DNA from: a virus
Length of the DNA: 64,000 bases
Strand: one strand, 5' to 3'
Virus record (IMG/VR): IMGVR_UViG_3300009103_000004
Span: 1-64,000 of that record
The position numbers and the translations under genes are program-made. This document shows, piece after piece, positions 12,479 to 41,037 of the stretch; position 1 is the first letter of the stretch; each line of letters begins with the position of its first letter. The notes under the pieces were generated by a model. It was given only the letters and a program-made list of their open reading frames with translations, was not told the DNA's origin and made no database searches.

Positions 12479-13564
12479 TTAGCTAGTACCGAAGAGGGTC
12501 TGGTACATCTCATCGTTTTTTCCGGCGGGCCCTCTTCGGTTTACTCTTTTTCTTTCTTCTTCTTTTTCTAAGATATCCAACTTCTCCCGATACTTCTTAA
12601 ACTCGTCGTCTGTCCTGGACCAAGCTTCCGTGGCTCTAGCAGTTGTTGCTCCTATAGGCATCCCTATAACTCCACCTAATCGTCCGACAGGCCCTCCTGC
12701 TAGCCCGCCAACAAGAGCACCACTATAGCTACCGTACGATCCACCGAATATTTGGTTTAAGTAATCTATTTTCTTTTTGTCAGCTACGGTGAGTTTTTCC
12801 TTTTTGTTAATTGCCTGTAACGCTTTGTTCATAGCATTACGATTTGCCCTGTACTCAAGATACATTGTCGTTCCCGGAACAGGCAGTAATCCTAACGTGG
12901 CTTGTTCGAGAAGAGGTAACAGAGCACGGCCACCAGGAGTTCCGTCTTCGGTGAAATCTTGTGCATGCCCCAACTCATGTCTCAAAACTCCAGGATCTGC
13001 AGATTCAACATTTACTGTGTCAGAAAATGGGTTGTAATGGTTTGGTCTGTTAAACCCCGCCATCCCGGCAGCTGCTTGCAATGGGTAAACTAAGCCCCCA
13101 AATAGTTTAGAGGGCCAGCCAGTTTTCTTATTTTTAAAAATATTTATAAATTCAGTTAATGGCCTAACACCCCCTAGCGACACATTAGTCTCTGCTAATG
13201 ACGGGTCATCCTTTAATTCTTCTATAATCTCCTTGATCTGCTTGTGCTGCTCTTGACTAGGCCCATGAATAAACTCCCTAGCATTAGTCCAAGGTGTCAT
13301 ATTATACGGTGACCCAGCGAGACTTAGAGCATAGTTTAATGGCTGTATCCTTCCCATTATCTCAAACGGCTTTGAAACTGAATCTGCAAGCTCGCCAACT
13401 GCCCCTCGTGACGTAGAACCCCCAGGGCCCTCACTCCATGTCGGCTCATACACACGCATGGGCCCAAAGTCTTCGGAGTCTATGTAAGGTAAACGCCTGA
13501 GTCCCTTTTTACGCTTCTTAGCAGCACTTGAACGTTTAGCTATGCCTGCTAGTCCGTTCATCAC
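12479..13564 (-). CDS. Zinc metallopeptidase-like protein with glycine-zipper helices
   Basis: NHYNPFSDTV...LRHELGHAQD (HExxH) with downstream LEYRAN third ligand; Gly-rich hydrophobic C-terminus. Confidence 0.65.
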   Translation of the reverse strand: MMNGLAGIAKRSSAAKKRKKGLRRLPYIDSEDFGPMRVYEPTWSEGPGGSTSRGAVGELADSVSKPFEIMGRIQPLNYALSLAGSPYNMTPWTNAREFIHGPSQEQHKQIKEIIEELKDDPSLAETNVSLGGVRPLTEFINIFKNKKTGWPSKLFGGLVYPLQAAAGMAGFNRPNHYNPFSDTVNVESADPGVLRHELGHAQDFTEDGTPGGRALLPLLEQATLGLLPVPGTTMYLEYRANRNAMNKALQAINKKEKLTVADKKKIDYLNQIFGGSYGSYSGALVGGLAGGPVGRLGGVIGMPIGATTARATEAWSRTDDEFKKYREKLDILEKEEERKRVNRRGPAGKNDEMYQTLFGTS

Positions 13565-15399
13565 AATAATCCTGTCTTTTCTGAATCTTCACCGAACCCG
13601 TGTCCAATTGCTAGCCTTGGTGCAAAGTGTACGTTCCTATCTACGTTTGTCTCTGCTCCGGAATTTGCAGACTGACTAAGCCTATGTGCTTGATAGCTGG
13701 AGTGTAAGGAAGCCAGCCAGTCCTTCTCATTTAAAGTTGCAGTTCTAAGCCTGACCATCTCTGGCTCAAAATTTAGTTTGTCGTCACTTGCTATCACTTT
13801 GTTAATACCCATATCAGCAATGTTGTTTGCCATGTTGGGAGTTATCTTGGTGCCAAGAGAGTAGTGTAGAGCCGGTGCGTGTAAGTACTTACCCACAGCG
13901 CTCTGCGTATCTCTTAACACAGCACTCTTGGGCGGGACATATGAAGAAACCAAAGAATTATAGGATGCCAAGTCTTCGGGCAGGTAACCACCTATGTCAT
14001 CATCCCCAGTTACACGAACATGATCCAATGCCCCTTTTGCTAAAAATTCTAAATTCTTTTTACTAGCGTATAGTCCACTATTATCAAAGACTTCCTTTAA
14101 ATAGTTTACGTAATGCTGTCTTCCTGAGCCCAAACCTCGTAAAGCTATAACGTCCTTTACGTCAAGTATACCCTCACTAAGTCTGTCTCCCGGTTCTACT
14201 GTCTGACCACGTTTTACATTTATCTCAAATCCAGGAAGAATATAATGATCCTGCCCATCTATTGTTACATTGTTCCCACCTTGCGGAGCCTTGCTTATTT
14301 TTTCCACGCGACCACCAACCTCAGCTAGTGTAGCCTTATTCGGGTATGTAGAAGGGCTTTGCATTATTTGATTAACCACCTTGAACCCGCTAGTAGGAAC
14401 TTTACTTCCACTAAACTGCCCACCCCCATGTTTAACATTTAGAGCACCTTGCGTTAGTGGCTCGCTCAAAGCGTGTGCAGCAGTTATACCTACAGCTTCT
14501 CCAAGTTTAGGGAACTTGCCGTCATTATTTAAACCCGAGCACTTAACGCATACACCGCTGGCAGACTCACAAGTTAACGGGCTTCTTGCCAGCACTCTTT
14601 CTTTTTTTAACTTGGTTAGTGCTTTATATACACTTTTATCTACAGCTTCCCCAGCAGCTACAGGGCCATACTTTCGTTGTAATACCCTGCCTGATAATTC
14701 TTCCACATCAGAAACATCAAGAGGTATGCCATTAGTTGTACCGCAGTCATCCTCAGTAGTTATCAACCTTGTAACGGACTGTACCATTTGCTTAGCTAAA
14801 TCACCAGCGTCTGCGGTAGCTTCTTTAGTAGATATAACAGCTTTTCTGGCGCCGAACGTACTTGATAGGTATTCTGCTGGCCTCAAGCCCTCGCCATAGC
14901 TGTTCTCTATAAACAAATCTATAATATTATCTTTGTAGTCTGTGTAAACTCCGGGAGTTGTGATCATGGATTTGAGCTGCCCTTTGTTTCCTCTTGCTCC
15001 AGAGACTACGGAGTTACCGAGATTGTGCTCAGTACCCTTGATTGACTCCATTGTCATCTTTTCTAGTATGTCAGAATACTTTGCGTATACAGCAGCTCTC
15101 GCACTTCTCTTGTCTTTTGCCTTGGATTCAGCCTTTTTTACGTCTTGCTTCATCTTAGCTATGACAGCGTCCTTGTCGAACGTCGGGTACATATCTGCCA
15201 GAGTTATGGTCTCTGCCTGGTTGTACGAAGCTTCCCTACCCAAGTCAGAAATCTCTTTAGATAACTTCCTATACTTCTCGGGGTGCTTGCTGGCAATTTC
15301 GGACATTATATAACTTATACCCTTACTGTTATATTCGACACCCTCCAAATCTATATCTTCGGGCACAATATCTCGCATTATTAAATCGACTGCCTTCAT
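13561..15399 (-). CDS. rpoC: Phage RNA polymerase beta' subunit, C-terminal half
   Basis: SGARG; bridge helix GARKAVISTKEATADAGDL; EDDCGT and RSPLTC..VCVKC Zn site; GEAVGITAAHALSEPLTQGALNVKHGGG trigger loop. Confidence 0.9.
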   Translation of the reverse strand: MKAVDLIMRDIVPEDIDLEGVEYNSKGISYIMSEIASKHPEKYRKLSKEISDLGREASYNQAETITLADMYPTFDKDAVIAKMKQDVKKAESKAKDKRSARAAVYAKYSDILEKMTMESIKGTEHNLGNSVVSGARGNKGQLKSMITTPGVYTDYKDNIIDLFIENSYGEGLRPAEYLSSTFGARKAVISTKEATADAGDLAKQMVQSVTRLITTEDDCGTTNGIPLDVSDVEELSGRVLQRKYGPVAAGEAVDKSVYKALTKLKKERVLARSPLTCESASGVCVKCSGLNNDGKFPKLGEAVGITAAHALSEPLTQGALNVKHGGGQFSGSKVPTSGFKVVNQIMQSPSTYPNKATLAEVGGRVEKISKAPQGGNNVTIDGQDHYILPGFEINVKRGQTVEPGDRLSEGILDVKDVIALRGLGSGRQHYVNYLKEVFDNSGLYASKKNLEFLAKGALDHVRVTGDDDIGGYLPEDLASYNSLVSSYVPPKSAVLRDTQSAVGKYLHAPALHYSLGTKITPNMANNIADMGINKVIASDDKLNFEPEMVRLRTATLNEKDWLASLHSSYQAHRLSQSANSGAETNVDRNVHFAPRLAIGHGFGEDSEKTGLL

Positions 15400-15405
15400 A
15401 CTTAT

Positions 15406-16485: not shown

Positions 16486-16503
16486 GACATCGCTGATTCG
16501 TTT

Positions 16504-16884
16504 CTAGGGTCCTGCTATCCAATTGATAAGATCCCCTAGACCAGCCTTTTCAGCTCCAGCCAAGTAGACAGGGTAGGCAATCATAGCTACAACTAGTAGC
16601 AAAGCCTTTTTCCATTTTTTAGTCTTATTTTCAGCAAAGTTTTCTGCAGAAGCTTCTTGTCTAAATTTCTCCAGTTCTATTACCTTTCCATTTATATTAC
16701 TACAGTAATCGTGTACATCAGACAGATGTTCCATTTGCCAGCGTTGCTGTTGTATTAATACTGATATACGTTCCAACAAGAACTTTTGTTGATCGTCGCA
16801 ATCTTTTAGCAAGTGCTTTGGTATAGTGGGCTTAAACTCAGGAGCGTCAAAGGGCCTACGCTGCCGCTGTATACTGTCACTCAT
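16504..16884 (-). CDS. Coiled-coil protein with C-terminal TM helix (lysis cassette)
   Basis: C-terminal hydrophobic ALLLVVAMIAYPVYLAGA. Confidence 0.45.
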   Translation of the reverse strand: MSDSIQRQRRPFDAPEFKPTIPKHLLKDCDDQQKFLLERISVLIQQQRWQMEHLSDVHDYCSNINGKVIELEKFRQEASAENFAENKTKKWKKALLLVVAMIAYPVYLAGAEKAGLGDLINWIAGP

Positions 16885-16892
16885 ATTATTAT

Positions 16893-17423: not shown

Positions 17424-17442
17424 GGTTTTCTCCTTAGTTAGG

Positions 17443-18798: not shown

Positions 18799-18803
18799 AC
18801 TAG

Positions 18804-20807: not shown

Positions 20808-23800
20808 TTATACAATGTTTACTTCGTCATTCAAATTTATATGTCCTGCACGTATAGCTTTTAACGCATCCGCTTTACTCCTAAAAGTAAAGGGCGTGCC
20901 ACCTTTGGATTTCTGCGAAGAATATAACCCCAGTATAAATTCATGTTTTGGTTTAGGCACAATATCATTTCTCTTCTTAATTGAGAATAACATTTTAGAT
21001 GGTAAAAGTTTGTTCTTAGCATCGTCCACCGCTTCGGGTAATGCAGGTAACTGTATATTCATAGCATCCCCATCAAAGTCTGCATTGTGACCTGTAGTTA
21101 CTAACGGGGATATCATAATAGTATTACCCTCAATTAGCTTAGGGTAACCAGCAGTAATATTATATTTATGCCAAGCTGGAGACCGTGAGTATATGACTGG
21201 TCGATCCTTAGATTCTAACTTCATAGCATGCTCTGCATGAGGGGCCCTGTCCCTAATAGCTATAACAGCATCTGCAGCACTTCTTCCAGACCTAACCAAC
21301 CTGCGCTGAATGTAAGGAGCGTATAGCTTCCACGCCATCTCCTTTGGTATCCCTATTTCATCTAGGTCAAGTTCTGGGTCTACGCCAATAACTCCTCTGC
21401 CAGAAGAGTCTACTGGTTTAGATATCAACCTACGTTGAAAAAAACTAAACTTAGCTTGGTTACCAACTAGTTTTTTTAGAAACCCCGAAACTCCTCTGGA
21501 TTTAGTCTTTGGTTGTACGGGGTCGCCAAACCCGTAAACGGCTTTGACTGCGTCATAAACATTTAATCTGCTGTCACCTACAGCTTCATCTCCCAACTCG
21601 TCTCTCAAGTCACGATACGAATCCCTTACCTCGAACAAATCTTTGTACAGTTCGTTAGCATCTCCTGGGACAAAAGAATCACCTATGATGTTAAACGGCC
21701 TAAACTTAGGAGGAATAACAGGAACTCTTGTTATCAAATAATCCGAAGGTGCTATATTATTTTTGCGCATCCCATGGGCGTAACGCATAAGTTTAATAGA
21801 TGGGCCGCGAGCAGATTTCTTTTTGCTGTCCAAGCCCTCCTTAGACATTTTCTCAACATCATTTACAGAGAAGGTTCTTAGTGCAGCGGCTAGTGAATCA
21901 GGCCCAGTATGCTTCATCTGGGAAACATCTGCAGTGCTGGCTGCTTTATCAATATACTCTGGTGGTATGCCACCACTGGGGGTTATAATTTGAGCGTGTG
22001 GCACATTGCTCGCATAACGAGCACCATCCGGTTCATCGTAATGCTTCCATAATTCTTCAGGAGTTTTTGAAATATACTTTCTAACATCCTCAATACCTAT
22101 ATCCTTGTGTCTCTCATCACCTTGATGCTCAGGACCCTCAGGGTCATAAGGAACTAACTCAGACCCAACTATACGTGTGCCCGGGTGATCCTTTAGTAAT
22201 TTACTTAAGTTTATTCTGATCAATTCAGATTTAAGTTTTTTAATTGGATGCGCATCAGTTATCTTACTAGAATCGGGATCTCCGAATAGTACGCTTGGTC
22301 CCTGCAGCGATGTTCCCCAAAACTCATCCTTAAGTTCCTCACTCACTCTAGCTTTAAAATCTTCTTCCGATTCTTCCCAATCTGTCCCAGCCCTGTTGGC
22401 TAGCACTGCCTTTAGCACCTCTTTGTTATCCAGCAAAGACTTGGAAGACAACAGGCCATGCTTATTTACTAAATCCGTAGATCCTCCTGGAATTGCACTT
22501 GTGACATATACGTCGGCCTCAGTGCTGGATTTCTTAACAAACTTAGCTATCCTATCAATTAAGCTCTGTGGAAGCTCTTCCTTACCAGATAATATATTTC
22601 TATACTGCTTTTCGGTAAGCCCCAGTATTTTTCTTACCGGCTCCTCGAATGCTGGGTTTGGAACTTCAAATGGTAATCTCACAAAGCCATACTTGTTTGT
22701 GTTTGATAAGGAGTCATCAAACAAACCACCTTTAACCGGTACTACAGCGCCCTTGGACAACTGACGCATCTCAAGCAAACCAGGGTTGTTTACCTCTACA
22801 GGGTCTAGTTCCGTAAGAACTTTCTCGGTCATTGGTCCGAGTCTCATGTCGCCCTTTTTATTTATCTGCCTAGCGTGATACCCAGATCCCTGAAGCAAAG
22901 TTTTAAATTTATTATATACCAGCGGAGTATCAGGCATCTTTGGATCGTACCCGCTCCTTAGCTGTTGCCAGTAGTCATCGTTCTTTGCTCCACGCAATAA
23001 TGACATGTCTTTCAACATGCCGTAAGCGCCAGATGATAACAGCCCATGGGTTTCAAGCCCACTTAACCGCTTGCTCTGAGCTAATTCATCCCCGCCCTTA
23101 AGTGGTTGCTCGTTAATATCATACGCTCCTTGGTTTCTAGCTGAGAACCCCTTAGTAGCAGTGTGGTGAAGCTTTAGAACGTAAGCGTCACCAACAGTTG
23201 CAGGCTTTTGTAATTTCTTATCACTTTGCGGGTCAAAGATTTCCTCCACATCAGAAATCCCATGCTTATCCAACTCACCCTTAACATAACTAAACCACTT
23301 GTTTCCCGGCTGTGTAAAAGCATTTAACTTGTAAGGCTTTCCCGTAGCTTTTGCAGCTTTACCCAACAGTAACTCGTAAATCATAGAGTTATTAACACGT
23401 GACGGTATCCCAAGAGGGTTAAGTAAAAGCTCAAGCGGCTTACCATTAACAGTTCTGGGCATATGGTCGTTTGGTATTATTTTACTTATCGTTCCCTTTT
23501 GACCTGATCTAAAAACAACCTTGTCACCAGGCATGGCTGGCTCATCAGAGCGTACTGTAACCTTAACCCCACTCCGAGTTCTTACAACATCTGTAACCAC
23601 CCCGGGAGTTTCGTGCTCCCAAACTAAAGAGGCATCATTCCTGGCATTCTTCATATACGATGAGAGCTTACCAAGTTTTTGTGATGAGGAAGAAACTACA
23701 CGAGGCTTACTAGCAAGTGCAACTGGATCACCAGGTTCCAGAGTTTGGCCCGGAAGAACCACACCGTTATCATCTAATTTATCTAACTGTGATATAACAA

Positions 23801-24482
23801 ATTTCTTTGGGAAAAGACTTACGTAGTGGTTCTTACCACCCTTTACACCACGCTTATATTCCAAATCGTCAGCATACATATGCTCGCTGGTAAGACGTTT
23901 TGCAAAATCTTCAGATACCACAATAGCGTCTTCCATTGAGTGACCCTTGTAAGGTAAGAGTCCAACTCTAGCATTGAGGCCAAGCGCCAGCGTTCCCCTA
24001 TCGTCTGTGTAGTTTGATTTGGCTAATAAATCTCCAGACTTAACAACGTCACCCTTTCTTACTATAGGAGTGTTGTGTAGGCTGGTTTTTCTATTGAAGG
24101 GAAAGTTATGATAGAGTGGCTTCTTGATAAGCTCGCCATCTTCAGACTTTATAGTTATGCTCTTTTTGTTAACATTTTGAACCACACCGTTCTTGTCTGA
24201 GAACATAGCGCCTGCATTACGCCCAAGCGTTTCGTCAAAGCTTTCTCCGTTATCGCTAAGCTCGTTTATATTTTGAATGAGTGGAGCTTCAGGATTTGAA
24301 AGAGGCAAAGCCTGATTAAAATACTTAGACCCGTAAAAGAGTCTAGAGCCATGAACTGAAGATTGAAGTGGTATTAGATTTAGATGACTACCGAAGAATT
24401 GGTTTGTGGACGGCAGCTCATAATCTACTTCCTTATTATCAACCTTAGTTATAACATCATTCTTAATTGCATGTCTCATCAT
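20808..24482 (-). CDS. Phage RNA polymerase fused beta C-terminal / beta' N-terminal subunit (catalytic)
   Basis: Beta motifs: EDAIVVSE, PGDKVVFRSGQKGTISKI, LLNPLGIPSR, YVLKLHH, KRLSGLE. Beta' motifs: GGLFD, VPVIPPKFRP, KPVDSSGRGVI, RSPAWHK, NADFDGD (21066-21086). Confidence 0.93.
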   Translation of the reverse strand: MMRHAIKNDVITKVDNKEVDYELPSTNQFFGSHLNLIPLQSSVHGSRLFYGSKYFNQALPLSNPEAPLIQNINELSDNGESFDETLGRNAGAMFSDKNGVVQNVNKKSITIKSEDGELIKKPLYHNFPFNRKTSLHNTPIVRKGDVVKSGDLLAKSNYTDDRGTLALGLNARVGLLPYKGHSMEDAIVVSEDFAKRLTSEHMYADDLEYKRGVKGGKNHYVSLFPKKFVISQLDKLDDNGVVLPGQTLEPGDPVALASKPRVVSSSSQKLGKLSSYMKNARNDASLVWEHETPGVVTDVVRTRSGVKVTVRSDEPAMPGDKVVFRSGQKGTISKIIPNDHMPRTVNGKPLELLLNPLGIPSRVNNSMIYELLLGKAAKATGKPYKLNAFTQPGNKWFSYVKGELDKHGISDVEEIFDPQSDKKLQKPATVGDAYVLKLHHTATKGFSARNQGAYDINEQPLKGGDELAQSKRLSGLETHGLLSSGAYGMLKDMSLLRGAKNDDYWQQLRSGYDPKMPDTPLVYNKFKTLLQGSGYHARQINKKGDMRLGPMTEKVLTELDPVEVNNPGLLEMRQLSKGAVVPVKGGLFDDSLSNTNKYGFVRLPFEVPNPAFEEPVRKILGLTEKQYRNILSGKEELPQSLIDRIAKFVKKSSTEADVYVTSAIPGGSTDLVNKHGLLSSKSLLDNKEVLKAVLANRAGTDWEESEEDFKARVSEELKDEFWGTSLQGPSVLFGDPDSSKITDAHPIKKLKSELIRINLSKLLKDHPGTRIVGSELVPYDPEGPEHQGDERHKDIGIEDVRKYISKTPEELWKHYDEPDGARYASNVPHAQIITPSGGIPPEYIDKAASTADVSQMKHTGPDSLAAALRTFSVNDVEKMSKEGLDSKKKSARGPSIKLMRYAHGMRKNNIAPSDYLITRVPVIPPKFRPFNIIGDSFVPGDANELYKDLFEVRDSYRDLRDELGDEAVGDSRLNVYDAVKAVYGFGDPVQPKTKSRGVSGFLKKLVGNQAKFSFFQRRLISKPVDSSGRGVIGVDPELDLDEIGIPKEMAWKLYAPYIQRRLVRSGRSAADAVIAIRDRAPHAEHAMKLESKDRPVIYSRSPAWHKYNITAGYPKLIEGNTIMISPLVTTGHNADFDGDAMNIQLPALPEAVDDAKNKLLPSKMLFSIKKRNDIVPKPKHEFILGLYSSQKSKGGTPFTFRSKADALKAIRAGHINLNDEVNIV

Positions 24483-26050
24483 GCTTTAGCCTTCGTAGGC
24501 TTGTTTTCCAACGCTAGTTGTTCTTCTCCGCCAGGGATTGCTTTCTTGGGTTTTTTCTTCGGATCTTTAAATAACATATTCCTGCTTAAGTTGGTGTAAA
24601 ACCTGTCTCGCACTTCGCCCTCTGGTATCTCAACAGTCATCACTCCAGGCTTTGCTTTGTTAGGCTTCTTTAATGCATTGTAAAGGTACGCTCCCAGTAA
24701 GGAACCACCTAGGGCAGATGTAACACCCCAAGCAGTCTTTGGATTTTCGCCAAACCAATCCTTTGTATCCTTCCACCAGTTGCCTTTCAATCTTTCCTTC
24801 TCTGCAGCCAAACGAGCTTTAGCGGCATCTAGATTAGTAGCCGCATGCTCGCCGGCCTCGTCAGTGTACTTCTGCATGCTTTCTGCTAGACTTCCAGCAT
24901 CCGCTGATAAATTTTGCATCCCCATGGTTCCCAACAAACCCAGCTGCTTGTATGTCCAGCCAGATCTATTAAGTGCTCCCAGTAAACTTTGCCTATCCTT
25001 TGCTTCCGAAACAAACCTGTTCTTAAACATCTTACTGCCAGCAGAGCCACCAGTTAGTGTACCGAGAAGGAGGTTGATTTTATGGATGGCGGGATCTGCA
25101 TCAGGAATGATGTACTCATTCTCCGCTGCTGCAGTACCAAACCCACCACCAGCTCCACCAAGCCTATGGAGTGCTCCAGAATCACGCAGCCTACCAGCGC
25201 CGCTAGCTAAGGCCTCTGCCCTAGGTGCTCCAAAGATACGTTGTAACAGTCTCACGAGTTTACCTGGGTCCCTTGTGGATTCCTTTACGTGAGCCTTCTT
25301 ACTACGTGGCTTGTTAGGATCTTCAGAGTACATAGTACCCATCTCGTCATCTATAATATTAGGGTATAACCCAAAGTGATCTGGGCCCGGTCCGCGCATC
25401 AACAAACCACTGGTGGGCTTGCCTCGCCGCTTAAAGTAATCTTCGTCCATCTCCTGACCAACAATATCCCTGCCAGGAACTCGATCTGAACCAAATCCGA
25501 AATGGTACCATGGCCTTGGTTTTGAATACCTCTCAACCAAAGCCAGTAGTTTTGATCGCAAATCTTTGGATCTGGTGCTTAACTTTTCTTTTTCCTTCTT
25601 TGCAGCGGCCTTAGTTATCTGTGTCTCAACGCCATCAATATTTTTGGCTAATTCAATAGATGGCTTGTTAGTATGAGAGATTAAAGCTTTAACAACATCC
25701 ACACCTGCAGCTTTTTCAGAAAGTATTTTTGTTATAGCTTCCTTAGCAAACCCCCTACGCCTATGTTCGGGCAATATACCTATACTGTAGTACCCAACCT
25801 TATCCATCCCCTCTTCACGCTCTTGCCACCCCACAAAGCCCACGGGTACGTGACTTGCACTTTTTCTAACTAAATATAACCCGCCATCAAAATGTTTGGA
25901 GGTAAGACCATTTGGCCAGTGCGAAGGGTTCTCATTATAGATGTTGCTCATAATTTCCTCTGCCTCGGAAAAAGCAGAGGCCGTTTTTACTAAAGACCCG
26001 TAATGCATAATATTAAAAGTTAAGGTATTATCTAGAAGCAACCCCCGCAT
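24479..26050 (-). CDS. GNAT acetyltransferase domain fused to Gly-rich membrane-type region
   Basis: VGFVG...YSIGILPEHRRRGFAKEA (acetyl-CoA motif A) and NKPSIELA (motif B); probable start at MHYGSLVKTA (~26008). Confidence 0.7.
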   Translation of the reverse strand: MRGLLLDNTLTFNIMHYGSLVKTASAFSEAEEIMSNIYNENPSHWPNGLTSKHFDGGLYLVRKSASHVPVGFVGWQEREEGMDKVGYYSIGILPEHRRRGFAKEAITKILSEKAAGVDVVKALISHTNKPSIELAKNIDGVETQITKAAAKKEKEKLSTRSKDLRSKLLALVERYSKPRPWYHFGFGSDRVPGRDIVGQEMDEDYFKRRGKPTSGLLMRGPGPDHFGLYPNIIDDEMGTMYSEDPNKPRSKKAHVKESTRDPGKLVRLLQRIFGAPRAEALASGAGRLRDSGALHRLGGAGGGFGTAAAENEYIIPDADPAIHKINLLLGTLTGGSAGSKMFKNRFVSEAKDRQSLLGALNRSGWTYKQLGLLGTMGMQNLSADAGSLAESMQKYTDEAGEHAATNLDAAKARLAAEKERLKGNWWKDTKDWFGENPKTAWGVTSALGGSLLGAYLYNALKKPNKAKPGVMTVEIPEGEVRDRFYTNLSRNMLFKDPKKKPKKAIPGGEEQLALENKPTKAKA

Positions 26051-27785: not shown

Positions 27786-29150
27786 TTACATTATACCGAC
27801 GAAGAACTCACCGGACTCTGGATCCAGACTAGAATCATCTAACGCAAGTTCGACTATCCTGTCTATATTTTCGGAAAGCATCTGACGATCTTCTACATGT
27901 TCCAGATCAATATCTTCCATGTTCAAGCTGCGCCTGAATTCGGATATAGCCTGGTAGAACTCATCAGTACTATCAAATGAACCTAGTTCTCCAGTTAGGT
28001 CGTCTATAATTGAAGTTAACTGAGTTACAGAATTTTCAGTAACGCGAGCTGGGTCTACAACCCGCTTAGCACCACTATCTTTTCTTTCCTCAATTTCATC
28101 CTCAGTCATTAGCGTCCTATCTAGTCGAATCTTAAGTTTCGAAACCTTATCAGCAATCATGCTTCTGATTCCCTTCTGAATGTCAGATACTGTGTCCAGT
28201 GTCTTATTCCTCCAGGATTCTATTTCACGTTGACGAATTGTTTCTTTCTCATGATTCAGCTCATCAGCAGCGCGTATCCTGTCAGCTATTGCTCGGTAAG
28301 AAGTGTTACCCTGCATTACGCAGGACGGTACCTCTTGTGTACGAGTCCACTCACATTTAATACGCCTAGGATTTCTTAGCGATTCTCTTGTTGGGATAAA
28401 CCCTGTGATGACATCCACTAGATCTTCGGAGAACATTCTACGATACTCTGAAATTATTTCAGCTCGCAAAACATCATATCGCTCATACATATAATCTATG
28501 TAAGAAAGATACGTTACTGGAGCTTGGTTATTAAGCTCCCACTCATTTCTCTTATCCAGCTTCCCGTCTATTATAATCTGAGCCTGACTACAAATGTCTG
28601 TACCGGCATAGGTTTCATAATCAGCATCAACAATTCCACGAGCGGCGAGCAAAGATGCTTCAACCTCCTCGAACTTGTCGAACTTTATCATGTAACCAAA
28701 GCGGATGTCGGCATTCGATGAATAACGACTCAGCGTCGAACTGATATATGAACGTATGGACGCGCCAATCTTTTTGAACCACGTCGGGAAAACATCCATC
28801 TTCCCCAGTCGCAGCTTTTCATCCTGATAGCGCTCACGCATCTCTTCGGGAAGAAGCTCTGGCGATATAGTTGCTTCCATCGAAGCAGGGAACCTAACAC
28901 TATACTTGTATCCCATGTATGACTCATTTAACTTAGCATGCATACGCAATGCTTGGTCATAATCGGAATTGATATCCTGTGCAAGGTCACCAGTAATCCG
29001 GTCGAAAGCAACATCACCGCTCCCAACCTGCACAGCAGGCTGGGAGCTTACATCTTCAGAATGCTCACTAATATCAGACTCCGTTGTTGGAGTCTCATGA
29101 TTTTCAGTTGTCATTTTCTTTTTTCTTTTTGTTAATCTTTTCGTCGCCAA
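27786..29150 (-). CDS. Hypothetical helical protein (DUF3150-like position in the AAA module)
   Basis: 454 aa ORF between the AAA+ and DUF1257-like genes; start may be MTTEN at ~29114. Confidence 0.45.
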   Translation of the reverse strand: MATKRLTKRKKKMTTENHETPTTESDISEHSEDVSSQPAVQVGSGDVAFDRITGDLAQDINSDYDQALRMHAKLNESYMGYKYSVRFPASMEATISPELLPEEMRERYQDEKLRLGKMDVFPTWFKKIGASIRSYISSTLSRYSSNADIRFGYMIKFDKFEEVEASLLAARGIVDADYETYAGTDICSQAQIIIDGKLDKRNEWELNNQAPVTYLSYIDYMYERYDVLRAEIISEYRRMFSEDLVDVITGFIPTRESLRNPRRIKCEWTRTQEVPSCVMQGNTSYRAIADRIRAADELNHEKETIRQREIESWRNKTLDTVSDIQKGIRSMIADKVSKLKIRLDRTLMTEDEIEERKDSGAKRVVDPARVTENSVTQLTSIIDDLTGELGSFDSTDEFYQAISEFRRSLNMEDIDLEHVEDRQMLSENIDRIVELALDDSSLDPESGEFFVGIM

Positions 29151-30903
29151 TCATGATCATGTTGGGAGCAGAATCGAGTATTCCTCGCTCATCGCTTGCA
29201 ACAGTATGATTGACGCATTGATCCATAAACCCAGACTCTTGAGCCCAACGTGTTTGCCTATCATACTCACTGTTTTCACGAGTACTCTGCGGGTTATGCA
29301 ATTTAGCTATACCTACAGCAAGCGAGCCTTCATCCTCTATCTTCTCAGCGTAAGCACGCTTTATAGTCTCGACGACAACATGCTCTATCTCGGCTCCAGT
29401 GAACCCGCGCGTTGAATCTACCAGCTCAGAAATAGGAAAATTATGTAATTCCCGCTTTCTCTTTTTAAGATGAACTGCGAATATCGCTGCACGAGCTTCA
29501 TCTTCTGGAAGACCAAGCCAAGCTTTGGAGTTAAACCTACCGGGCCTAAGGAGTGCATCATCAAGCATGGCTCCGTTATTAAACGTACCAACTATATATG
29601 CGTTGTCATTCTTGTTATACTGACGCTCTTGAAAGTACGTAAGTAATGTACCAAGTAAACGCAGACCGGTGCCCATAGTGGAATCATCTCCCTTACTGGA
29701 GAAGCTACCAAAGAGCTTGTCACATTCCTCAAAATAGAGGATACAACCAGCACCTTGATACAACTCTGGAAGAGCAAGAATCTTGTTCAAGTTCTCCTCA
29801 GACTTACCCAAGTGAGAATGCAATATCTTATTTGCGGAAACCAATAGTACATCCATTCCAAACTCACCACCAGTTGCTACAGCAAGAGCAGACTTACCAG
29901 TACCTGGAGGACCACCAAACAAAATACCATTTGGTTTATCCATTCCAAAGTCTTGAGCTTCCTCGTTAAGACCATTTAGATCTCTGGTTATCATAGACTT
30001 GGCATCTTCATAACCACCGATGACCTCAAAGCCACCCCTTGGTTTTACTAATTCAACCAACCCAGTCTCCCGAATATATTCTCTACGTAGACGAGCACAC
30101 TCAGCCACATACGAAGGATCGTTGTAACTAAAGTCAGACCTGACAAGAGCTAGAGTAAAAGCTTGCCGTGCCTTGTGAGTGTATAATCCCTGAGTAGCGG
30201 AAATAGATTTCTCTACAGTCTCATCAGTAGGTAAATCAAGGTTGGGCCTGCCCCTTCGAGCGGAGTTATGAATTACATCAAATGCCTTACCTAGAGCTTC
30301 CTTGCCAGGGAGCGTGTAGTGCAATCTCTGTACGTCATCCGACAATGTTTCCGGCACGGTCATAGACGGGCCGTAAAATATAAAAGAACACGTACGATGT
30401 TCAAAGAAGGGAAGACAATTAATAATCATCTCCATTACAGAATACGGTCGGCCTGGGCCCCATGCCATACCCGACCAGCACTCATTAAAATTACGCATAA
30501 GAAATACGCACTTTTGGTTGAGTTGCGGGCAGTCGGCTGGAGTCTTACCCTCCATAACCATCTCCTGAATTACACGAAGAGCTTCCACAGGATGGGTTGT
30601 ATCCCCAGTTCCCAAACTACGAGCATTCGTGCCATTGTTCGGGAAGTAGTGCAATCCTTCGTCACCATCCCAGTACACTATACTGCCGTCAATAGTAGGA
30701 CGACTTACAGCTTCCTTGATGTCCTTAACGAATTGGCGCCTGTCGTGTACGTCAACCACAAGTGCTGGCACAGCGCTTCTTACGTGTACTATTAGTTCAT
30801 TTATGAACTTTTCATTCAGTATCGTGTCTTCTTGTTCCTGAGGAAGTTGAACTGTTTCCTCGTTACCTTCTTCTGAGTTAGTCTCAGCATTATTATCTGT
30901 CAT
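29104..30903 (-). CDS. AAA+ ATPase, Ycf46-like
   Basis: Walker A GPPGTGKS; Walker B ILYFEE; SRH NNGAMLDDALLRPGRF; GFTGAEIE; degenerate N-terminal AAA domain. Confidence 0.85.
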   Translation of the reverse strand: MTDNNAETNSEEGNEETVQLPQEQEDTILNEKFINELIVHVRSAVPALVVDVHDRRQFVKDIKEAVSRPTIDGSIVYWDGDEGLHYFPNNGTNARSLGTGDTTHPVEALRVIQEMVMEGKTPADCPQLNQKCVFLMRNFNECWSGMAWGPGRPYSVMEMIINCLPFFEHRTCSFIFYGPSMTVPETLSDDVQRLHYTLPGKEALGKAFDVIHNSARRGRPNLDLPTDETVEKSISATQGLYTHKARQAFTLALVRSDFSYNDPSYVAECARLRREYIRETGLVELVKPRGGFEVIGGYEDAKSMITRDLNGLNEEAQDFGMDKPNGILFGGPPGTGKSALAVATGGEFGMDVLLVSANKILHSHLGKSEENLNKILALPELYQGAGCILYFEECDKLFGSFSSKGDDSTMGTGLRLLGTLLTYFQERQYNKNDNAYIVGTFNNGAMLDDALLRPGRFNSKAWLGLPEDEARAAIFAVHLKKRKRELHNFPISELVDSTRGFTGAEIEHVVVETIKRAYAEKIEDEGSLAVGIAKLHNPQSTRENSEYDRQTRWAQESGFMDQCVNHTVASDERGILDSAPNMIMIGDEKINKKKKENDN

Positions 30904-32366: not shown

Positions 32367-32374
32367 TATATAAC
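32367..32374 (-). promoter_or_regulatory. Putative promoter element GTTATATA
   Basis: The same 8-mer occurs in intergenic regions at 33470-33477 and 55314-55321, each upstream of a minus-strand gene. Confidence 0.4.
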
Positions 32375-33469: not shown

Positions 33470-33477
33470 TATATAAC
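33470..33477 (-). promoter_or_regulatory. Putative promoter element GTTATATA
   Basis: Repeated intergenic motif. Confidence 0.4.
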
Positions 33478-33494
33478 ACAAACGCGTATATAAT

Positions 33495-34508: not shown

Positions 34509-34523
34509 AATGTGTTAAATGAT

Positions 34524-35411: not shown

Positions 35412-35435
35412 AATACTACAAAATACTTTACATGT

Positions 35436-36146
35436 TTACTCTGGAAGCGCAATCACTTTATTGGCCAAGTCTTTGGCTGACAACCACTCGTACTTTCCAG
35501 TGCGTGAATTTTTGAATCGTTGGTATATATTACCATCGCTTCCGAGCTTGGCTCCCCAAGCAATTCTAGTATCAACTCCAATACGTTCAGACTCAGGTCC
35601 TTCTATTGCAGAGAGGAACATAAATTCTGACGGGTGAAGGTTTTGTGCATCCTCTGTAATGGATGTAGAACTAGGTAAACCACCAGGTCCCATTTGAGAA
35701 ACCCGCCTAGCCTGCTCTGTGAGATGCATTGGGTTTATCTCCTCAAGAGCCAGGGACAATGGATTACCAGTAATTAACTTTTCCGAATACTTGTTAAAGT
35801 GGCCAGGAGCGATGCTGTTGAGATTTCCCATTCTGGATATCCTACGAACAGTGTTTCGCATCAGCTTCTCAGCATCCATGTCTATGCGCTCACGCAATAG
35901 TTTGTCAGGACCATACACCTTCCTGAACCTAAGAGAGTCGCGTTCGTCCGGGTCAACTAGGCCACGATTAATTGCCAGAACCTTTTCGGTAGCAGACAAT
36001 ATAGTGTCCACTCCACCATCTATCTCATCATCAGGGTCTTCGTCGTCGTACTTAAAGCTAGTAGTTGCAGCCTGCTTTTCATACTGAGACTCGATAGCCA
36101 TTAGCACAAAGTCATCTATGCTATCATCTTCTTCGGAATAACTCAT
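35436..36146 (-). CDS. rpoB: Phage RNA polymerase beta subunit, middle fragment (fork/rifampicin-pocket region)
   Basis: EEINPMHLTEQARRVSQMGPGGL...QNLHPSEFMFLSAIEGPESERIG aligns with the RpoB NPL...RR.SALGPGGL...[21 protein letters not shown] region. Confidence 0.85.
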   Translation of the reverse strand: MSYSEEDDSIDDFVLMAIESQYEKQAATTSFKYDDEDPDDEIDGGVDTILSATEKVLAINRGLVDPDERDSLRFRKVYGPDKLLRERIDMDAEKLMRNTVRRISRMGNLNSIAPGHFNKYSEKLITGNPLSLALEEINPMHLTEQARRVSQMGPGGLPSSTSITEDAQNLHPSEFMFLSAIEGPESERIGVDTRIAWGAKLGSDGNIYQRFKNSRTGKYEWLSAKDLANKVIALPE

Positions 36147-38550: not shown

Positions 38551-38586
38551 TACTACAGATTACTTAATAATTAAATTATGTAAAGT

Positions 38587-41037
38587 TTATTGCTTTGTAC
38601 TGGATTCGGAATCAGGTTGATTATTATCCGTGTAGCACTTTGCTACATCCTCATCCGTAACGCGGATAATATTGATGCTATCCGCATCACTATCCAATAA
38701 CTTATAATACCGATGCCTACCGTCAATAATATCATTATTCTCATCAACCAATATAGGCTTAGTTGTATCAGCTTCTTCATAACGTTTTGATCCGAAGCCT
38801 GTGCGTTTGCTTCGGTTAGCCCCATTTGTAGAAAGACGTTCTAGAGCTATAGACTCAGTATCTCTACCCCCCACCAGATCAATTAATTTTATTATATCTA
38901 CTTCGTGACCGTTCTTTAGAGTCTTGGTGTGCAGGTGCACATTCTCTGCTTCTGGATTTTGGCGGTACTTACCTTTACGAGCATACTTTATTGTATTCTC
39001 TACCCACGCATCGCACGTGTTGTCTTTAACGCAACTAAAGTTAAACGCATTACAATGACCAACGTTAGTCCTATGTTGGCAAGTCCCACAAGTCTTATCT
39101 GGAGATTCAGAAGGACGATAATTAGGAGCTTCCAAGTTTATAGCAGCACCCTCTATAGAAGCCGCTGCCTTTGTGTCATCCAACCCTAGTATACCCATAG
39201 CTTGATCCCTGATATCAACTTGCGACTCATCTTTGATATCCAAGTCAGCCACAACATGCTTTGGGAGATGCAATCTAAATCCAGTGGGTGAGTGAGTAAC
39301 TCCAACAATACCTTCCTCACGAGTAGTTATAACAAAATCCTTAGGATTCTTATTCATTAAAGTACGCAACCGAACTTGCTTGTGGTGGTACTGCTTGTTG
39401 TCAGATTCATTCTTGGCCTTGATTAATTCGTCTAGAGCAGATCCCGGTTCCACTGCGGAGCTCTTCCTACGCTCCTCCTCCTCTTCAGCTTCCTGTGCAG
39501 CAAGCTCTTCCTCTTCTTCAAGACGTGCAAGCTCCTCATCAGTAAGTTCATGGGCACCATATATTTTCTTCTTATGACGAAAAGCTGCAGAGATAGGGTT
39601 GAACATAGCTTCCTTCTCATCAAATCTTTCTCTCTCTGGGTCCACTGCACCCATCTTGGGCATCATGGATTGTTCGGGCATTCCCATTTCGGGTTGCTGA
39701 GGCATTCCCATTTCGGGTTGCTGTTGCATCATGTCCTGCAACGGAGGTTGTTCAGGTATCTGCTGTTGCGGAAGACTTTGCCTTATTCTACCAAGAACAC
39801 GTTCGCGCTCTTGCTCTAAACGCTCCTGATCAGCACGATCCTTAATATCATGGAATTTATCCTGCAGCTTATCCTCTGCCTTTATCTTCTCCACATGTTT
39901 CTTGTTCTGGTGCTTTAGATCCTTTGTAACTTTCTTTGTCTTAATGGCCCTCTCAGTCTTCTGCTTATTATGCATATTTTGCATAACTTGCTTAACAACA
40001 GCATGCGGGTCGAGCTGACCACTCTCATTAAGCAAATCAGCGTTAAGTCCCTGTATCTCCAGCTTCTTCCTGCGTACCTCTAGGTCACGCTTAAACTCTG
40101 CCTGCTCTTGCTTTTTCTTAGCCTTGTCTTCCAGCTCCTGACGCTTCTGGTCCCACTTAACGAACTCCTCGGAATTTTGAGCCATTGAAAAAGGCTGTTG
40201 TGGAGCAGCAGGAGCCTGAAACCCAAACTTCCTCCAAACTGACGCAGCCTTTTCATTAAATAAATTAGGGAGTGTTCGCTCAACAGAAGACTTTGAAAGT
40301 TTAGTTAACTGTAGAGCATTCCTGACTGCAGTAACTTTATCCTCCCTGGATGCATCGGGATCCCCATTCCTAACAAGTTTACTGTATGCCTTATCCAGTA
40401 CCCTAGAGTCATACTTAGCCTTGTTAGCCTGTAGAACTTCAGGCCCCCACCTAAGCTCAAGGTCATCATCCGGTACTCCTATATCATGCAACAATGAATA
40501 CAAACGAAGAGAAGCTTGGTCTATATCCATTTTGTAAAGAGAGGTCTCTGGCTCTAATCTCAACCTGTAAGATTTACCAGTACCACGCTTTGCATTGATA
40601 TGAGCCTCGATCTCTCCAGATTCTTTTTTACGAGTGTATATGCCCGAAGATAGGCGGGCTTGATTTAATGTTACATACTCATTCCCATTATGTATCATGG
40701 TCCCACGATCTGTAACGTAGGGAACACGCATTAACGTAACTTTCTTTTTCTCTATAAGTCCGCCCTGATCTCTGTCGTAAAGGCTGAACGTTCCACGCAA
40801 CCTGTTACCAAGAAATTGATTTTTCATCAGGGCATTCTTCTGCTGTACAAGATCGTACTCTCCCTTATCAGCATAATGAACGTCATCAAGCTCCAGACGA
40901 TACTTTCCGTACTCCTGTGGAAAGCGTTTCTTAAATCCCTCAGCTACAGAGTTGAATGTGTCTTCCCTAAGTGCTGAGAAATCATCTAAGTCTCTAAGCC
41001 TAACTCCTGTAGGTACTATGTCTCCTTTTCCTATCAT
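38587..41037 (-). CDS. rpoB: Phage RNA polymerase beta N-terminal fragment fused to coiled-coil, Cys4 (HiPIP-like) and ParB-like modules
   Basis: LRGTF...LMRVPYVTDRGTMIHNGNEYVTLNQARLSSGIY (RpoB N-term) in aa 1-~260; CGTC..C..CDAW; PILVDENNDIIDGRHR. Confidence 0.8.
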   Translation of the reverse strand: MIGKGDIVPTGVRLRDLDDFSALREDTFNSVAEGFKKRFPQEYGKYRLELDDVHYADKGEYDLVQQKNALMKNQFLGNRLRGTFSLYDRDQGGLIEKKKVTLMRVPYVTDRGTMIHNGNEYVTLNQARLSSGIYTRKKESGEIEAHINAKRGTGKSYRLRLEPETSLYKMDIDQASLRLYSLLHDIGVPDDDLELRWGPEVLQANKAKYDSRVLDKAYSKLVRNGDPDASREDKVTAVRNALQLTKLSKSSVERTLPNLFNEKAASVWRKFGFQAPAAPQQPFSMAQNSEEFVKWDQKRQELEDKAKKKQEQAEFKRDLEVRRKKLEIQGLNADLLNESGQLDPHAVVKQVMQNMHNKQKTERAIKTKKVTKDLKHQNKKHVEKIKAEDKLQDKFHDIKDRADQERLEQERERVLGRIRQSLPQQQIPEQPPLQDMMQQQPEMGMPQQPEMGMPEQSMMPKMGAVDPERERFDEKEAMFNPISAAFRHKKKIYGAHELTDEELARLEEEEELAAQEAEEEEERRKSSAVEPGSALDELIKAKNESDNKQYHHKQVRLRTLMNKNPKDFVITTREEGIVGVTHSPTGFRLHLPKHVVADLDIKDESQVDIRDQAMGILGLDDTKAAASIEGAAINLEAPNYRPSESPDKTCGTCQHRTNVGHCNAFNFSCVKDNTCDAWVENTIKYARKGKYRQNPEAENVHLHTKTLKNGHEVDIIKLIDLVGGRDTESIALERLSTNGANRSKRTGFGSKRYEEADTTKPILVDENNDIIDGRHRYYKLLDSDADSINIIRVTDEDVAKCYTDNNQPDSESSTKQ
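39677..39723. repeat. 24-bp-period tandem duplication encoding QQPEMGMP
   Basis: GGCATTCCCATTTCGGGTTGCTG occurs twice. Confidence 0.8.

What the first reader, a model, noticed from the sequence alone, without database searches (positions are those of the whole stretch)
13561..41037. Phage multisubunit RNA polymerase split in an unusual four-gene pattern with a beta/beta' fusion
Seen: beta N-term (38587-41037), beta middle/fork region (35436-36146), a single chain joining beta C-term to beta' N-term including NADFDGD (20808-24482), and beta' C-term (13561-15399). The genes are colinear on the minus strand but spread over 27 kb among putative virion genes. No alpha or sigma gene is recognisable in the window. 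Knowledge: phiKZ/AR9-type jumbo-phage RNAPs split beta and beta' into separate halves, and Helicobacter/Wolbachia have full RpoBC fusions. Here both double-psi barrels sit on one chain while the flanking parts are shed. Inference: this is a virion-packaged, alpha-less RNAP whose pieces are small enough to be ejected.
Basis: partly seen in the sequence, partly recalled or inferred. Interest (0 to 1): 0.8.

Follow-up and report, generated by a model that had tools for sequence, protein, structure and literature searches.

The report
Four-piece phage RNA polymerase with fused core
This 167-kb marine phage encodes one complete bacterial-type RNA polymerase as four scattered genes, the most fragmented form yet seen of a large, apparently undescribed phage family whose ancestral enzyme is a single beta-beta' chain.

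Summary
Four colinear minus-strand genes together give one complete RNA polymerase core. They are an 816-aa protein whose first 260 residues are the beta N-terminus, a 236-aa beta fork piece, a 1224-aa beta-C/beta'-N fusion carrying both catalytic barrels, and a 612-aa beta' C-half. The genome holds only this one set. No alpha or sigma homologue was detected.

The fusion is not peculiar to this phage. At least 447 IMG/VR contigs and over 100 protein clusters share it. In an outgroup-rooted tree the basal relatives encode all four parts as one chain of about 2050 aa. One clade, including Salmonella phage Arash, split off the beta' C-half. One nested clade (100% support), including this phage, also split off the two beta N-terminal pieces.

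So "small enough to be ejected" is not supported. Virion packaging is plausible only by analogy with Arash proteomics.

New here: the beta N-terminal piece carries a conserved ParB/Srx-fold tail. In relatives it additionally carries a cell-wall hydrolase domain, or has a 2H-phosphoesterase domain in place of the tail.

The scan had already found and followed up the two-gene layout on other genomes (e1-5340750). I found no paper describing the fusion.

The parts
38587..41037 (-). Piece A, 816 aa. It holds the beta N-terminus (protrusion/lobe, aa 1-260) and a 556-aa C-terminal extension.
   Evidence: tblastn to Arash gp206 aa 7-262. PDB beta hits E 3e-4. Foldseek hit to Mtb beta B1-B2 E 5e-5. 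Matches aa ~15-256 of unsplit relatives. Family alignment A2.
40258..41037 (-). The beta-homologous part of piece A (aa 1-260).
   Evidence: Predicted to bind piece B: ipSAE 0.79 against best control 0.28.
38605..38877 (-). ParB/Srx-fold domain at the C-terminus of piece A (aa ~721-811). The G-R-H-R motif is nearly invariant.
   Evidence: VIA-align Z 8.9 sulfiredoxin, 8.1 serine kinase, 7.9 KorB, also ParB-N, PadC and SbnI; the next unrelated row is at 4.8 or below. Foldseek finds the same family at E 2.6e-3 upward. H775, R776 and G773 are conserved. No Pfam hit.
35436..36146 (-). Piece B, 236 aa. It is the middle of beta, with the rest of the protrusion and the fork (Rpb2_3). Aa 1-44 are an acidic add-on.
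   Evidence: Pfam Rpb2_3 E 2.7e-7. Matches E. coli beta 402-617 and Arash gp206 aa 263-469. 248 stand-alone homologue clusters.
20808..24482 (-). Piece C, 1224 aa. The beta C-terminal half (hybrid-binding barrel, flap, clamp anchor) runs without a stop into the beta' N-terminal half (clamp, catalytic barrel).
   Evidence: Pfam Rpb2_6 plus Rpb1_2. PDB: aa 8-509 match beta and aa 860-1223 match beta' 174-538. Junction read.
21066..21086 (-). NADFDGD Mg-binding motif (aa 1133-1139 of piece C).
   Evidence: Translation. D1135, D1137 and D1139 are invariant in 14 relatives.
21909..22571 (-). Lineage-specific, hypervariable insertion in the beta' clamp (aa ~638-858 of piece C).
   Evidence: Absent from most relatives, which go from C637 to C859. 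One relative (L008) is split into two genes exactly here. No Pfam hit. Atlas gave no lead.
13561..15399 (-). Piece D, 612 aa. It is the beta' C-terminal half (Rpb1_5, the region that holds the bridge helix and trigger loop in cellular beta').
   Evidence: Pfam Rpb1_5 E 1.6e-20. Matches B. subtilis beta' 622-1090 and cyanobacterial RpoC2 125-354. Matches Arash gp216 at E 6e-60.

Best explanation
The four genes encode the only RNA polymerase of this phage. It is a complete two-barrel catalytic core equivalent to bacterial beta plus beta', cut into four polypeptides that assemble non-covalently. Piece A is beta 1-260 plus a cargo tail. Piece B is the beta fork. Piece C is beta-C fused to beta'-N. 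Piece D is beta'-C.

The covalent link between beta and beta' at the clamp is inherited from an ancestor in which the whole enzyme was one chain of about 2050 aa. The lineage then lost continuity stepwise. The beta' C-half came off first, at the same place where cyanobacteria split rpoC1 from rpoC2. The two beta N-terminal pieces came off next. At each break, blocks of other genes now separate the pieces.

Shown:
- the homology, completeness and colinearity of the pieces;
- that the genome has a single set;
- that the split is conserved across a broad clade;
- the polarity on a rooted tree;
- a predicted A-B interface.

Inferred:
- that the enzyme is active and transcribes phage genes without alpha or a sigma-70-type factor;
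- that it is packaged in the virion and injected, as proteomics of Salmonella phage Arash suggest (my odds about 55%);
- that the permanent beta-beta' link substitutes for the alpha-dimer assembly platform.
For: Domains and motifs.

The pieces tile unsplit relatives end to end. A 6-260, B 44-236 and C 18-1223 map on Arash gp206 aa 7-1524. They tile ~1460-aa and ~2050-aa single ORFs in the same way.

There is one Rpb2_6 and one Rpb1_2 in the genome.

The catalytic Asp triad and the beta lysines are invariant in relatives.

In a relative whose piece C is 81% identical, the order A..B..AAA..GNAT..C..D is kept. The RNAP pieces are 73-85% identical, while many neighbouring genes are 27-67% identical.

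Stand-alone B occurs in 248 clusters at 52-88% identity. Stand-alone A occurs in 32 clusters.

Trees: the 'C-alone' clade has 100% support in both trees. The ABC|D clade has 95% support and is nested among single-chain forms when rooted on bacteria.

A(1-265) with B: ipSAE 0.79 (three runs 0.83, 0.78, 0.79) against a best control of 0.28. That mark was reached by 58 of 80 solved complexes and 2 of 110 mismatched pairs. The runs share at least 89% of contacts and the partner's pLDDT is at least 88. This pass may be memory of solved beta structures.

Virion packaging: Arash Gp206 (3516 spectra) and Gp216 (1210 spectra) are among the top virion proteins (PMC10585845). Piece D lies directly upstream of homologues of Arash virion proteins Gp218 and Gp222, the latter prohead-protease-like. 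One piece-A orthologue carries a cell-wall hydrolase domain.
Against: There are no experimental data for this phage or any member of the four-gene clade.

Arash is distant. Its RNAP is 26-35% identical, and only about six genes are shared. Its authors note that abundant enzymes may contaminate virion preparations.

Arash and Vibrio phage D69 have sigma-70-like genes, and this genome has none detectable. The initiation factor is therefore unknown, and the biology may differ.

The trees are FastTree and a quick IQ-TREE search with SH-like supports only. Architectures of database proteins without context are inferred from the protein alone.

Most genes between the pieces have no annotation, so the setting 'among virion genes' is weakly founded.
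Confidence: 0.72

Rival explanations
1. The enzyme is functional but not packaged. Host RNAP transcribes the early genes, including the RNAP genes. The phage enzyme then takes over middle and late transcription, on the T7 model.
For: There is a single RNAP set, whereas phiKZ-type phages have separate virion and non-virion sets. A promoter-like motif, TGTTATATA, resembles a host extended -10 element. It lies 28-75 nt upstream of about 11 mostly small genes outside the RNAP block. That fits host sigma-70 recognition of an early class.
Against: The two RNAP proteins top the Arash virion proteome. The RNAP genes sit in a long co-directional block that runs into head genes, which suggests late expression. 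The same motif could equally be read by an injected phage enzyme.
Confidence: 0.25
2. The four genes are remnants of a decaying RNAP, or of a captured host rpoBC, and no longer form an enzyme.
For: The arrangement is scattered, with kilobases of unrelated genes between the pieces. No Pfam model sees piece A.
Against: All ORFs are intact and together cover beta and beta' without gaps or overlaps. The catalytic residues are invariant. The same split is kept over a clade down to ~50% identity. The family is separated from bacterial rpoB/rpoC with 100% support.
Confidence: 0.02
3. The pieces are rejoined after translation or transcription, by split inteins or trans-splicing, to restore one chain.
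For: Inteins (PF14528, PF14890) are common in relatives. Group II intron reverse transcriptases are fused in frame to some piece-A homologues.
Against: B ends, and C and D begin, within a few residues of the matching positions in unsplit relatives. That leaves no room for intein halves. The intein sites in relatives (C133, C324-333, C361, C456, C1015, C1139, B167-186) do not coincide with the split sites. Piece A ends in a conserved folded ParB/Srx domain, not an intein.
Confidence: 0.02

Closest known systems
Salmonella phage Arash Gp206 (1525 aa) plus Gp216 (606 aa), and Vibrio phages D69, D148 and D181 (1527 aa plus 609 aa)
   Same: They have the same beta-C/beta'-N fusion junction and the same beta' split site. 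They have one RNAP set and no alpha. The beta'-C gene lies upstream of the same virion genes, Gp218-like and Gp222-like. The Arash proteins are abundant in virions.
   Different: There the whole of beta is on the fused chain, giving two genes, whereas here beta 1-260 and the fork are separate genes, giving four. They encode sigma-70-like proteins, which were not found here. They lack the ParB/Srx-tailed piece. Identity is only 26-35%. The Arash paper annotates Gp206 simply as 'beta subunit' and does not mention the fusion.
Uncultured single-chain relatives of ~2050 aa (for example IMG/VR loci L016, L017, L024, L038)
   Same: They are homologous over all four pieces, in the same order. They lie basal in the rooted tree.
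   Different: They have one ORF and no breaks. They lack the cargo tail on the beta lobe and the clamp insertion.
mReC, the multi-subunit RNAP-encoding Caudovirales (Weinheimer & Aylward 2020, PMC7481178)
   Same: They are environmental tailed phages of 100-300 kb with a bacterial-like but deep-branching beta and beta'. Some come from the same metagenomes as my relatives.
   Different: Their tables list separate beta (986-1521 aa) and beta' (899-1391 aa) proteins, and sometimes two sets per contig. The text mentions no fusion, split, intein or virion packaging. The sequence relationship to this family was not tested.
phiKZ/AR9-type jumbo-phage RNAPs
   Same: They are alpha-less and lack a canonical sigma. 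Beta and beta' are each cut into pieces. One set is virion-packaged (PMC7598289 and PMC7824862).
   Different: They have two paralogous sets (virion and non-virion), no beta-beta' fusion and different cut points. Their sequences are far more divergent; only weak PHROG matches were found here.
Helicobacter and Wolbachia RpoBC fusions, the cyanobacterial/plastid rpoC1|rpoC2 split and the archaeal B''|B' split (from my own knowledge of these systems)
   Same: The beta C-terminus is joined directly to the beta' N-terminus through a short linker. The C|D cut aligns with the start of cyanobacterial RpoC2. The B|C cut lies near E. coli beta 617-648.
   Different: Those are cellular enzymes with alpha, omega and sigma. 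None combines the fusion with three cuts. The genes of a cellular split stay adjacent, whereas here 2.4, 11 and 5.4 kb of other genes intervene.

Membership tests
Two-barrel multisubunit RNA polymerase (cellular beta/beta' type) | A beta' catalytic double-psi barrel with the NADFDGD Mg site | tested here: met
   Rpb1_2 E 5e-22. The motif is at aa 1133-1139 and is invariant in relatives.
Two-barrel multisubunit RNA polymerase (cellular beta/beta' type) | A beta hybrid-binding barrel with the conserved lysines | tested here: met
   Rpb2_6 E 1.9e-57. K321 and K329 are invariant.
Two-barrel multisubunit RNA polymerase (cellular beta/beta' type) | A complete set of flanking modules: beta protrusion/lobe, fork, and the beta' C-half (Rpb1_5) | tested here: met
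   The pieces tile unsplit homologues.
Two-barrel multisubunit RNA polymerase (cellular beta/beta' type) | Alpha dimer, omega and a sigma-70 factor | tested here: not met
   No PF01000, PF01193, PF04542, PF04545 or TIGR02937 match anywhere in the 167-kb record. Omega was not searched. Divergent analogues cannot be excluded.
Fused beta-beta' phage RNAP family (Arash Gp206/Gp216 type and single-chain relatives) | The beta C-terminus is continuous with the beta' N-terminus in one ORF | tested here: met
   The same junction is seen in 80 of 80 fetched IMG/VR loci apart from a few secondarily split ones.
Fused beta-beta' phage RNAP family (Arash Gp206/Gp216 type and single-chain relatives) | Groups with the family, away from bacterial rpoB/rpoC, in a tree | tested here: met
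   The family is monophyletic at 100% SH-aLRT against three bacterial outgroups.
Fused beta-beta' phage RNAP family (Arash Gp206/Gp216 type and single-chain relatives) | The whole of beta lies on the fused chain | tested here: not met
   Here beta 1-260 and the fork are separate genes. This state defines a nested clade of 58 rows.
Fused beta-beta' phage RNAP family (Arash Gp206/Gp216 type and single-chain relatives) | The proteins are present in virions | not testable with these tools
   Known only for Arash, by mass spectrometry.
phiKZ/AR9-type jumbo-phage RNAP | Two paralogous sets (virion and non-virion), with unfused, split beta and beta' | tested here: not met
   One set only, and beta-beta' are fused.
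mReC (Weinheimer & Aylward 2020) | Separate full-length beta and beta' genes that cluster in their deep-branching clade | tested here: inconclusive
   The architecture differs. No mReC sequence was available to place in my tree.
ParB/Srx superfamily (C-terminal domain of piece A) | The ParB N-domain/sulfiredoxin fold with a conserved G-x-H/R-R box | tested here: met
   The top eight VIA-align rows all belong to the superfamily, with Z 6.0-8.9. Foldseek agrees weakly. G773, H775 and R776 are conserved. There is no Pfam hit, and activity is unknown.

The most novel reading that the evidence does not exclude
Fragmentation turned the dispensable beta-lobe piece into an injected carrier of swappable effector domains. 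These are ParB/Srx here, and cell-wall hydrolase or 2H phosphoesterase in orthologues. On this reading the polymerase enters the cell together with, and physically tethered to, take-over or entry enzymes. It would be a 'polyvalent' virion RNA polymerase that needs neither alpha nor a sigma-70-type factor.
Probability: 0.2. Interest if true: 0.8.

Novelty: new variant of a known kind. Interest (0 to 1): 0.6.

Why it matters
The family is a natural series of the same enzyme as one, two, four and five polypeptides. It shows where a two-barrel RNA polymerase tolerates cuts and joins. It also bears on how such an enzyme assembles without the alpha dimer.

The single-chain and few-chain forms (about 2050 aa in total, with no alpha and possibly no sigma) are candidates for a compact, orthogonal, bacterial-type transcription system.

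For phage biology, the family marks a very large and mostly marine or environmental group of 130-220-kb phages whose transcription is probably host-independent. It has one cultured Salmonella member in which this can be tested.

The variable tail on the beta-lobe piece suggests a new way of delivering effectors.

Tried and rejected
- PHROGs and Pfam on about 30 neighbouring genes. Almost nothing was annotated: an AAA ATPase, a GNAT-like gene directly upstream of piece C, a metallophosphatase and a prohead-protease-like gene. 'Virion genes between the pieces' could therefore not be shown.
- megablast of 24.5 kb against phages: no match.
- The search for related loci with the single protein: nothing. 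The alignment query was needed.
- The genome search on ENA/JGI loci: those records are not held.
- Sigma search with Arash and D69 sigma-like proteins by phmmer --max: nothing below E 0.1.
- Idea that a group II intron caused the A|B split: rejected. The reverse transcriptases sit after aa 317-441 of piece A, inside the tail and not at the break. One such protein lies on a bacterial-looking contig, possibly a chimeric assembly.
- Idea that inteins caused the splits: rejected, because their sites differ from the split sites.
- L086 as an 'unfused family member': rejected. It groups with Staphylococcus rpoB/rpoC.
- Equating the family with the published mReC: not sustained.
No Pfam hit and no atlas lead.
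- Domain A529-608: confident model, but no clear structural match.
- Literature searches for a phage beta-beta' fusion found nothing. The library lacks most subscription journals.
Full report
WHAT IS THERE

The window is the first 64 kb of a 167,189-bp IMG/VR virus record estimated to be 94% complete. Nearly all of its genes are on the minus strand.

Pfam places the domains as follows:
- The 1224-aa product of 20808-24482 has Rpb2_6 (aa 96-463, E 1.9e-57) and Rpb1_2 (aa 1022-1156, E 5e-22).
- The 612-aa product of 13561-15399 has Rpb1_5.
- The 236-aa product of 35436-36146 has Rpb2_3.

The translation shows NADFDGD at aa 1133-1139. It also shows the beta C-terminus running through a short linker into the beta' N-terminus, whose zinc ribbon is missing.

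Against PDB sequences the pieces map as follows:
- Piece C aa 8-509 match beta from about E. coli residue 648 towards the C-terminal region, and aa 860-1223 match B. subtilis beta' 174-538.
- Piece B aa 30-233 match E. coli beta 402-617.
- Piece D aa 30-474 match B. subtilis beta' 622-1090. Its aa 130-342 match cyanobacterial RpoC2 125-354.

The C|D cut therefore coincides, within a few residues, with the rpoC1|rpoC2 cut of cyanobacteria.

THE 816-AA PROTEIN

Pfam sees nothing in it. Only its first ~260 residues are beta, on four lines of evidence:
- They match bacterial beta N-termini weakly (E 3e-4).
- They match the N-terminus of Salmonella phage Arash Gp206 (E 1e-23).
- They match the first ~260 residues of dozens of unsplit relatives.
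- An AlphaFold model built on 18 homologues hits the M. tuberculosis beta B1-B2 domains and 40 other beta chains. The model is only moderate, with pLDDT 60.

The remaining 556 residues are a conserved add-on. They comprise a long charged and Gln-rich helical stretch, a small folded module (aa ~529-608) without a clear structural match, a four-Cys stretch found only in close relatives, and a C-terminal domain (aa ~721-811).

A second model, with pLDDT 75, assigns that C-terminal domain to the ParB/Srx fold. The top eight VIA-align rows are sulfiredoxin, serine kinase SerK, KorB, SbnI, PadC, ParB-N and Atu1540, with Z 6.0-8.9. Unrelated rows score 4.8 or lower. Foldseek agrees weakly. A G-R-H-R box is nearly invariant.

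THE PIECES TILE UNSPLIT RELATIVES

On Arash Gp206 (1525 aa), A 6-260, B 44-236 and C 18-1223 map end to end on residues 7-262, 263-469 and 493-1524. Piece D maps on Gp216. Vibrio phages D69, D148 and D181 have the same two-gene form.

A search of 5.8 billion proteins returned 1171 clusters at E ≤ 0.001. The 120 listed fall into four groups: ~1460-1500-aa A+B+C chains, ~930-1220-aa C-only chains, ~700-aa chains that stop at the clamp insertion, and longer ones with inteins.

In IMG/VR, at least 447 contigs encode a relative. Of the 80 loci fetched, 43 carry A+B+C+D in one open frame of about 2020-2190 aa, or longer where inteins are present.

The fusion is therefore family-wide, and the complete single chain is common.

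POLARITY

A FastTree of 182 rows and an IQ-TREE quick tree of 65 rows were built on profile-match columns of piece C. The second was rooted on Salmonella, Acinetobacter and Staphylococcus rpoB+rpoC. They agree on four points:
- The phage family is monophyletic (100).
- The basal grades are all single-chain.
- The forms without piece D make one clade (95). Its sister, L045, is single-chain.
- Inside that clade, all C-only forms make one clade (100, 58 rows in the large tree). It includes this phage. Its sister is a group of A+B+C forms.

Rows labelled A+B+C inside the single-chain grade are ORFs cut by contig ends. One C-only row, P0067, lies outside the C-only clade. It is nearly identical to an A+B+C protein and is probably a truncated gene call.

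The most economical reading is stepwise fragmentation: one chain, then two, then four. One relative (L008) has gone to five by splitting piece C exactly at the hypervariable clamp insertion that this phage carries at aa ~638-858.

The supports are SH-like only and the searches were short. A careful analysis is still needed.

THE SPLIT IS MAINTAINED, NOT DECAY

Stand-alone fork pieces of ~230 aa form 248 clusters at 52-88% identity, on contigs of up to 206 kb. Stand-alone piece-A homologues form 32 clusters.

In a 175-kb relative whose piece C is 81% identical, the order A - two genes - B - ... - AAA ATPase - ... - GNAT-like gene - C - ... - D is the same. A, B, C and D are 76, 85, 81/75 and 73% identical, while many genes between them are 27-67% identical.

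A more distant 183-kb relative keeps A, B, the AAA gene, the GNAT-like gene and C1|C2, but with different fillers. A sister A+B+C phage has none of these fillers within 10 kb of its gene. The gene blocks therefore entered at the breaks, or the pieces moved.

The catalytic Asp triad and the beta lysines are invariant.

B ends, and C and D begin, at the positions expected from unsplit forms. There is no room for split inteins, and the intein sites of relatives lie elsewhere.

ASSEMBLY

A complex prediction of piece A (1-265) with piece B gave ipSAE 0.79 (three runs 0.83, 0.78, 0.79) against a best control of 0.28. That mark was reached by 58 of 80 solved complexes and 2 of 110 mismatched pairs. 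The runs share at least 89% of their contacts, and the partner's pLDDT is at least 88.

These are halves of a domain with many solved structures. The pass therefore shows likeness to beta, not independent proof of binding. The full four-chain complex exceeds the size limit here.

PARTNERS AND TIMING

The genome has one Rpb2_6 and one Rpb1_2. It has no alpha (PF01000, PF01193). It has no sigma-70 region 2 or 4 and no TIGR02937 match.

Arash Gp10, Arash Gp196 and D69_0246 are sigma-70-like by Pfam, but they have no homologue here. The specificity factor of this enzyme is unknown.

A promoter-like motif, TGTTATATA, reads as an extended -10 (TG-n-TATATA). It lies 28-75 nt upstream of about 11 genes, mostly small ones at 86-141 kb. 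It does not precede any RNAP gene. It fits either host sigma-70 or an injected enzyme, so it does not decide the timing.

VIRION PACKAGING

The only direct evidence is from Arash. There, Gp206 (3516 spectra) was the most detected virion protein and Gp216 (1210 spectra) was fifth. Sigma-like Gp10 was also present. The authors caution that abundant enzymes might carry over (PMC10585845).

Three observations here are consistent with packaging:
- Piece D is followed by homologues of Arash virion proteins Gp218 and Gp222, as in Arash and in the sister phage. The Gp222 homologue is prohead-protease-like.
- The RNAP genes sit in a 46-kb co-directional block of large genes.
- One orthologue of piece A has a SleB-type cell-wall hydrolase domain inserted in its tail.

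I put packaging at about 55%.

Relatives encode 1525-aa and ~2050-aa chains.

CARGO TAIL

Orthologues of piece A end differently:
- a ParB/Srx tail, in this phage and about 20 clusters;
- the same tail with an added cell-wall hydrolase domain (P0261);
- a 2H phosphoesterase domain directly after the beta part (P0280-P0284);
- an unknown ~220-aa domain (P0286, P0287);
- in-frame group II intron reverse transcriptases (P0272-P0275);
- fusion to piece B (P0285).

The small module A533-590 recurs at the C-terminus of a piece-C protein (P0017) and in a separate gene next to another RNAP (L012).

The break in the beta lobe lies at or near the region where bacterial beta carries lineage-specific insertions (my own knowledge). 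It has thus become a docking site for variable domains. Whether these are injected effectors is speculation.

COMPARISON WITH WHAT IS KNOWN

Jumbo-phage RNAPs of the phiKZ/AR9 type are alpha-less and split. They come as two unfused sets (PMC7598289 and PMC7824862).

The 'mReC' phages of Weinheimer and Aylward (PMC7481178) have separate beta and beta' genes in the authors' own tables. The text mentions no fusion. I could not place mReC sequences in my tree.

Bacterial RpoBC fusions (Helicobacter, Wolbachia) share the junction but nothing else.

I found no paper that describes a phage beta-beta' fusion of this kind. The library searched is incomplete.

Within this scan, the two-gene layout had already been found on other genomes and followed up, with the same conclusion (e1-5340750). 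A three-piece beta on another genome was also noted (e1-5817335).

This window adds four things: the four-gene form, its single origin, the rooted fragmentation series, and the cargo-bearing beta-lobe piece.

VERDICT

This is a new variant within an apparently undescribed but very widespread family of phage RNA polymerases. Interest is moderate to high for RNA polymerase and phage specialists. It is lowered because the family layout is already on record in this scan and no function has been measured.

Noticed in passing
genome-wide; in the window at 33470-33478, 32367-32374 and 55314-55321 (minus strand): A promoter-like motif, (T/C)GTGTTATATA, reads as an extended -10 (TG-n-TATATA). It lies 28-75 nt upstream of about 11 genes and is often just after a hairpin plus T-run. 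GTGTTATATA occurs in 7 of 52 upstream intergenic regions and only 8 times in the genome in that sense.
   Followed up: partly
L057:8819-14593 and L082:8624-14683: In two sister IMG/VR relatives the single-chain RNAP frame is interrupted three times. Every interruption is TGA, which suggests TGA recoding in those phages.
   Followed up: partly
proteins P0272-P0275; locus L092:10001-12598: Group II intron reverse transcriptase (RVT_N, RVT_1, GIIM) is fused in frame after aa 317-441 of piece-A homologues. One copy lies on a contig with planctomycete-like genes, an integrase and a transposase, and may be a chimeric assembly at the intron.
   Followed up: partly
relatives P0020-P0036, P0087, P0101, P0107, L019, L056, L080, L083 and others: Inteins (PF14528, PF14890) interrupt the RNAP at many conserved sites (C133, C324-333, C361-368, C456, C1015, C1139-1150, B167-186), with up to four in one gene. 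None is at a split site.
   Followed up: partly
window 24479-26050 and 29104-30903 (minus strand): A GNAT-like gene (523 aa) has a stop that overlaps the start of piece C. An AAA ATPase (599 aa) lies nearby. Both keep their place next to the RNAP pieces in relatives of the split clade but are absent near the unsplit gene of a sister phage. Their role is unknown.
   Followed up: partly
window 3805-5280 and 10037-12415 (minus strand): These are a prohead-protease-like protein (phrog_18299, E 1e-7; homologue of Arash virion protein Gp222) and a 792-aa protein whose C-terminus matches Arash virion protein Gp218. The latter follows the beta'-C gene in Arash, in the sister phage and here.
   Followed up: partly
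L086 (IMGVR_UViG_3300029491_000146): An IMG/VR 'viral' contig carries classical adjacent rpoB (1280 aa) and rpoC (1191 aa) that group with Staphylococcus in the tree. This is either host DNA or a recent capture, not a member of the phage family.
   Followed up: partly
window 21909-22571 (minus strand): The ~220-aa clamp insertion of piece C differs in length even among relatives 80% identical. It marks the place where one relative split the gene. I found no Pfam hit and no atlas lead, and could not fold it.
   Followed up: partly
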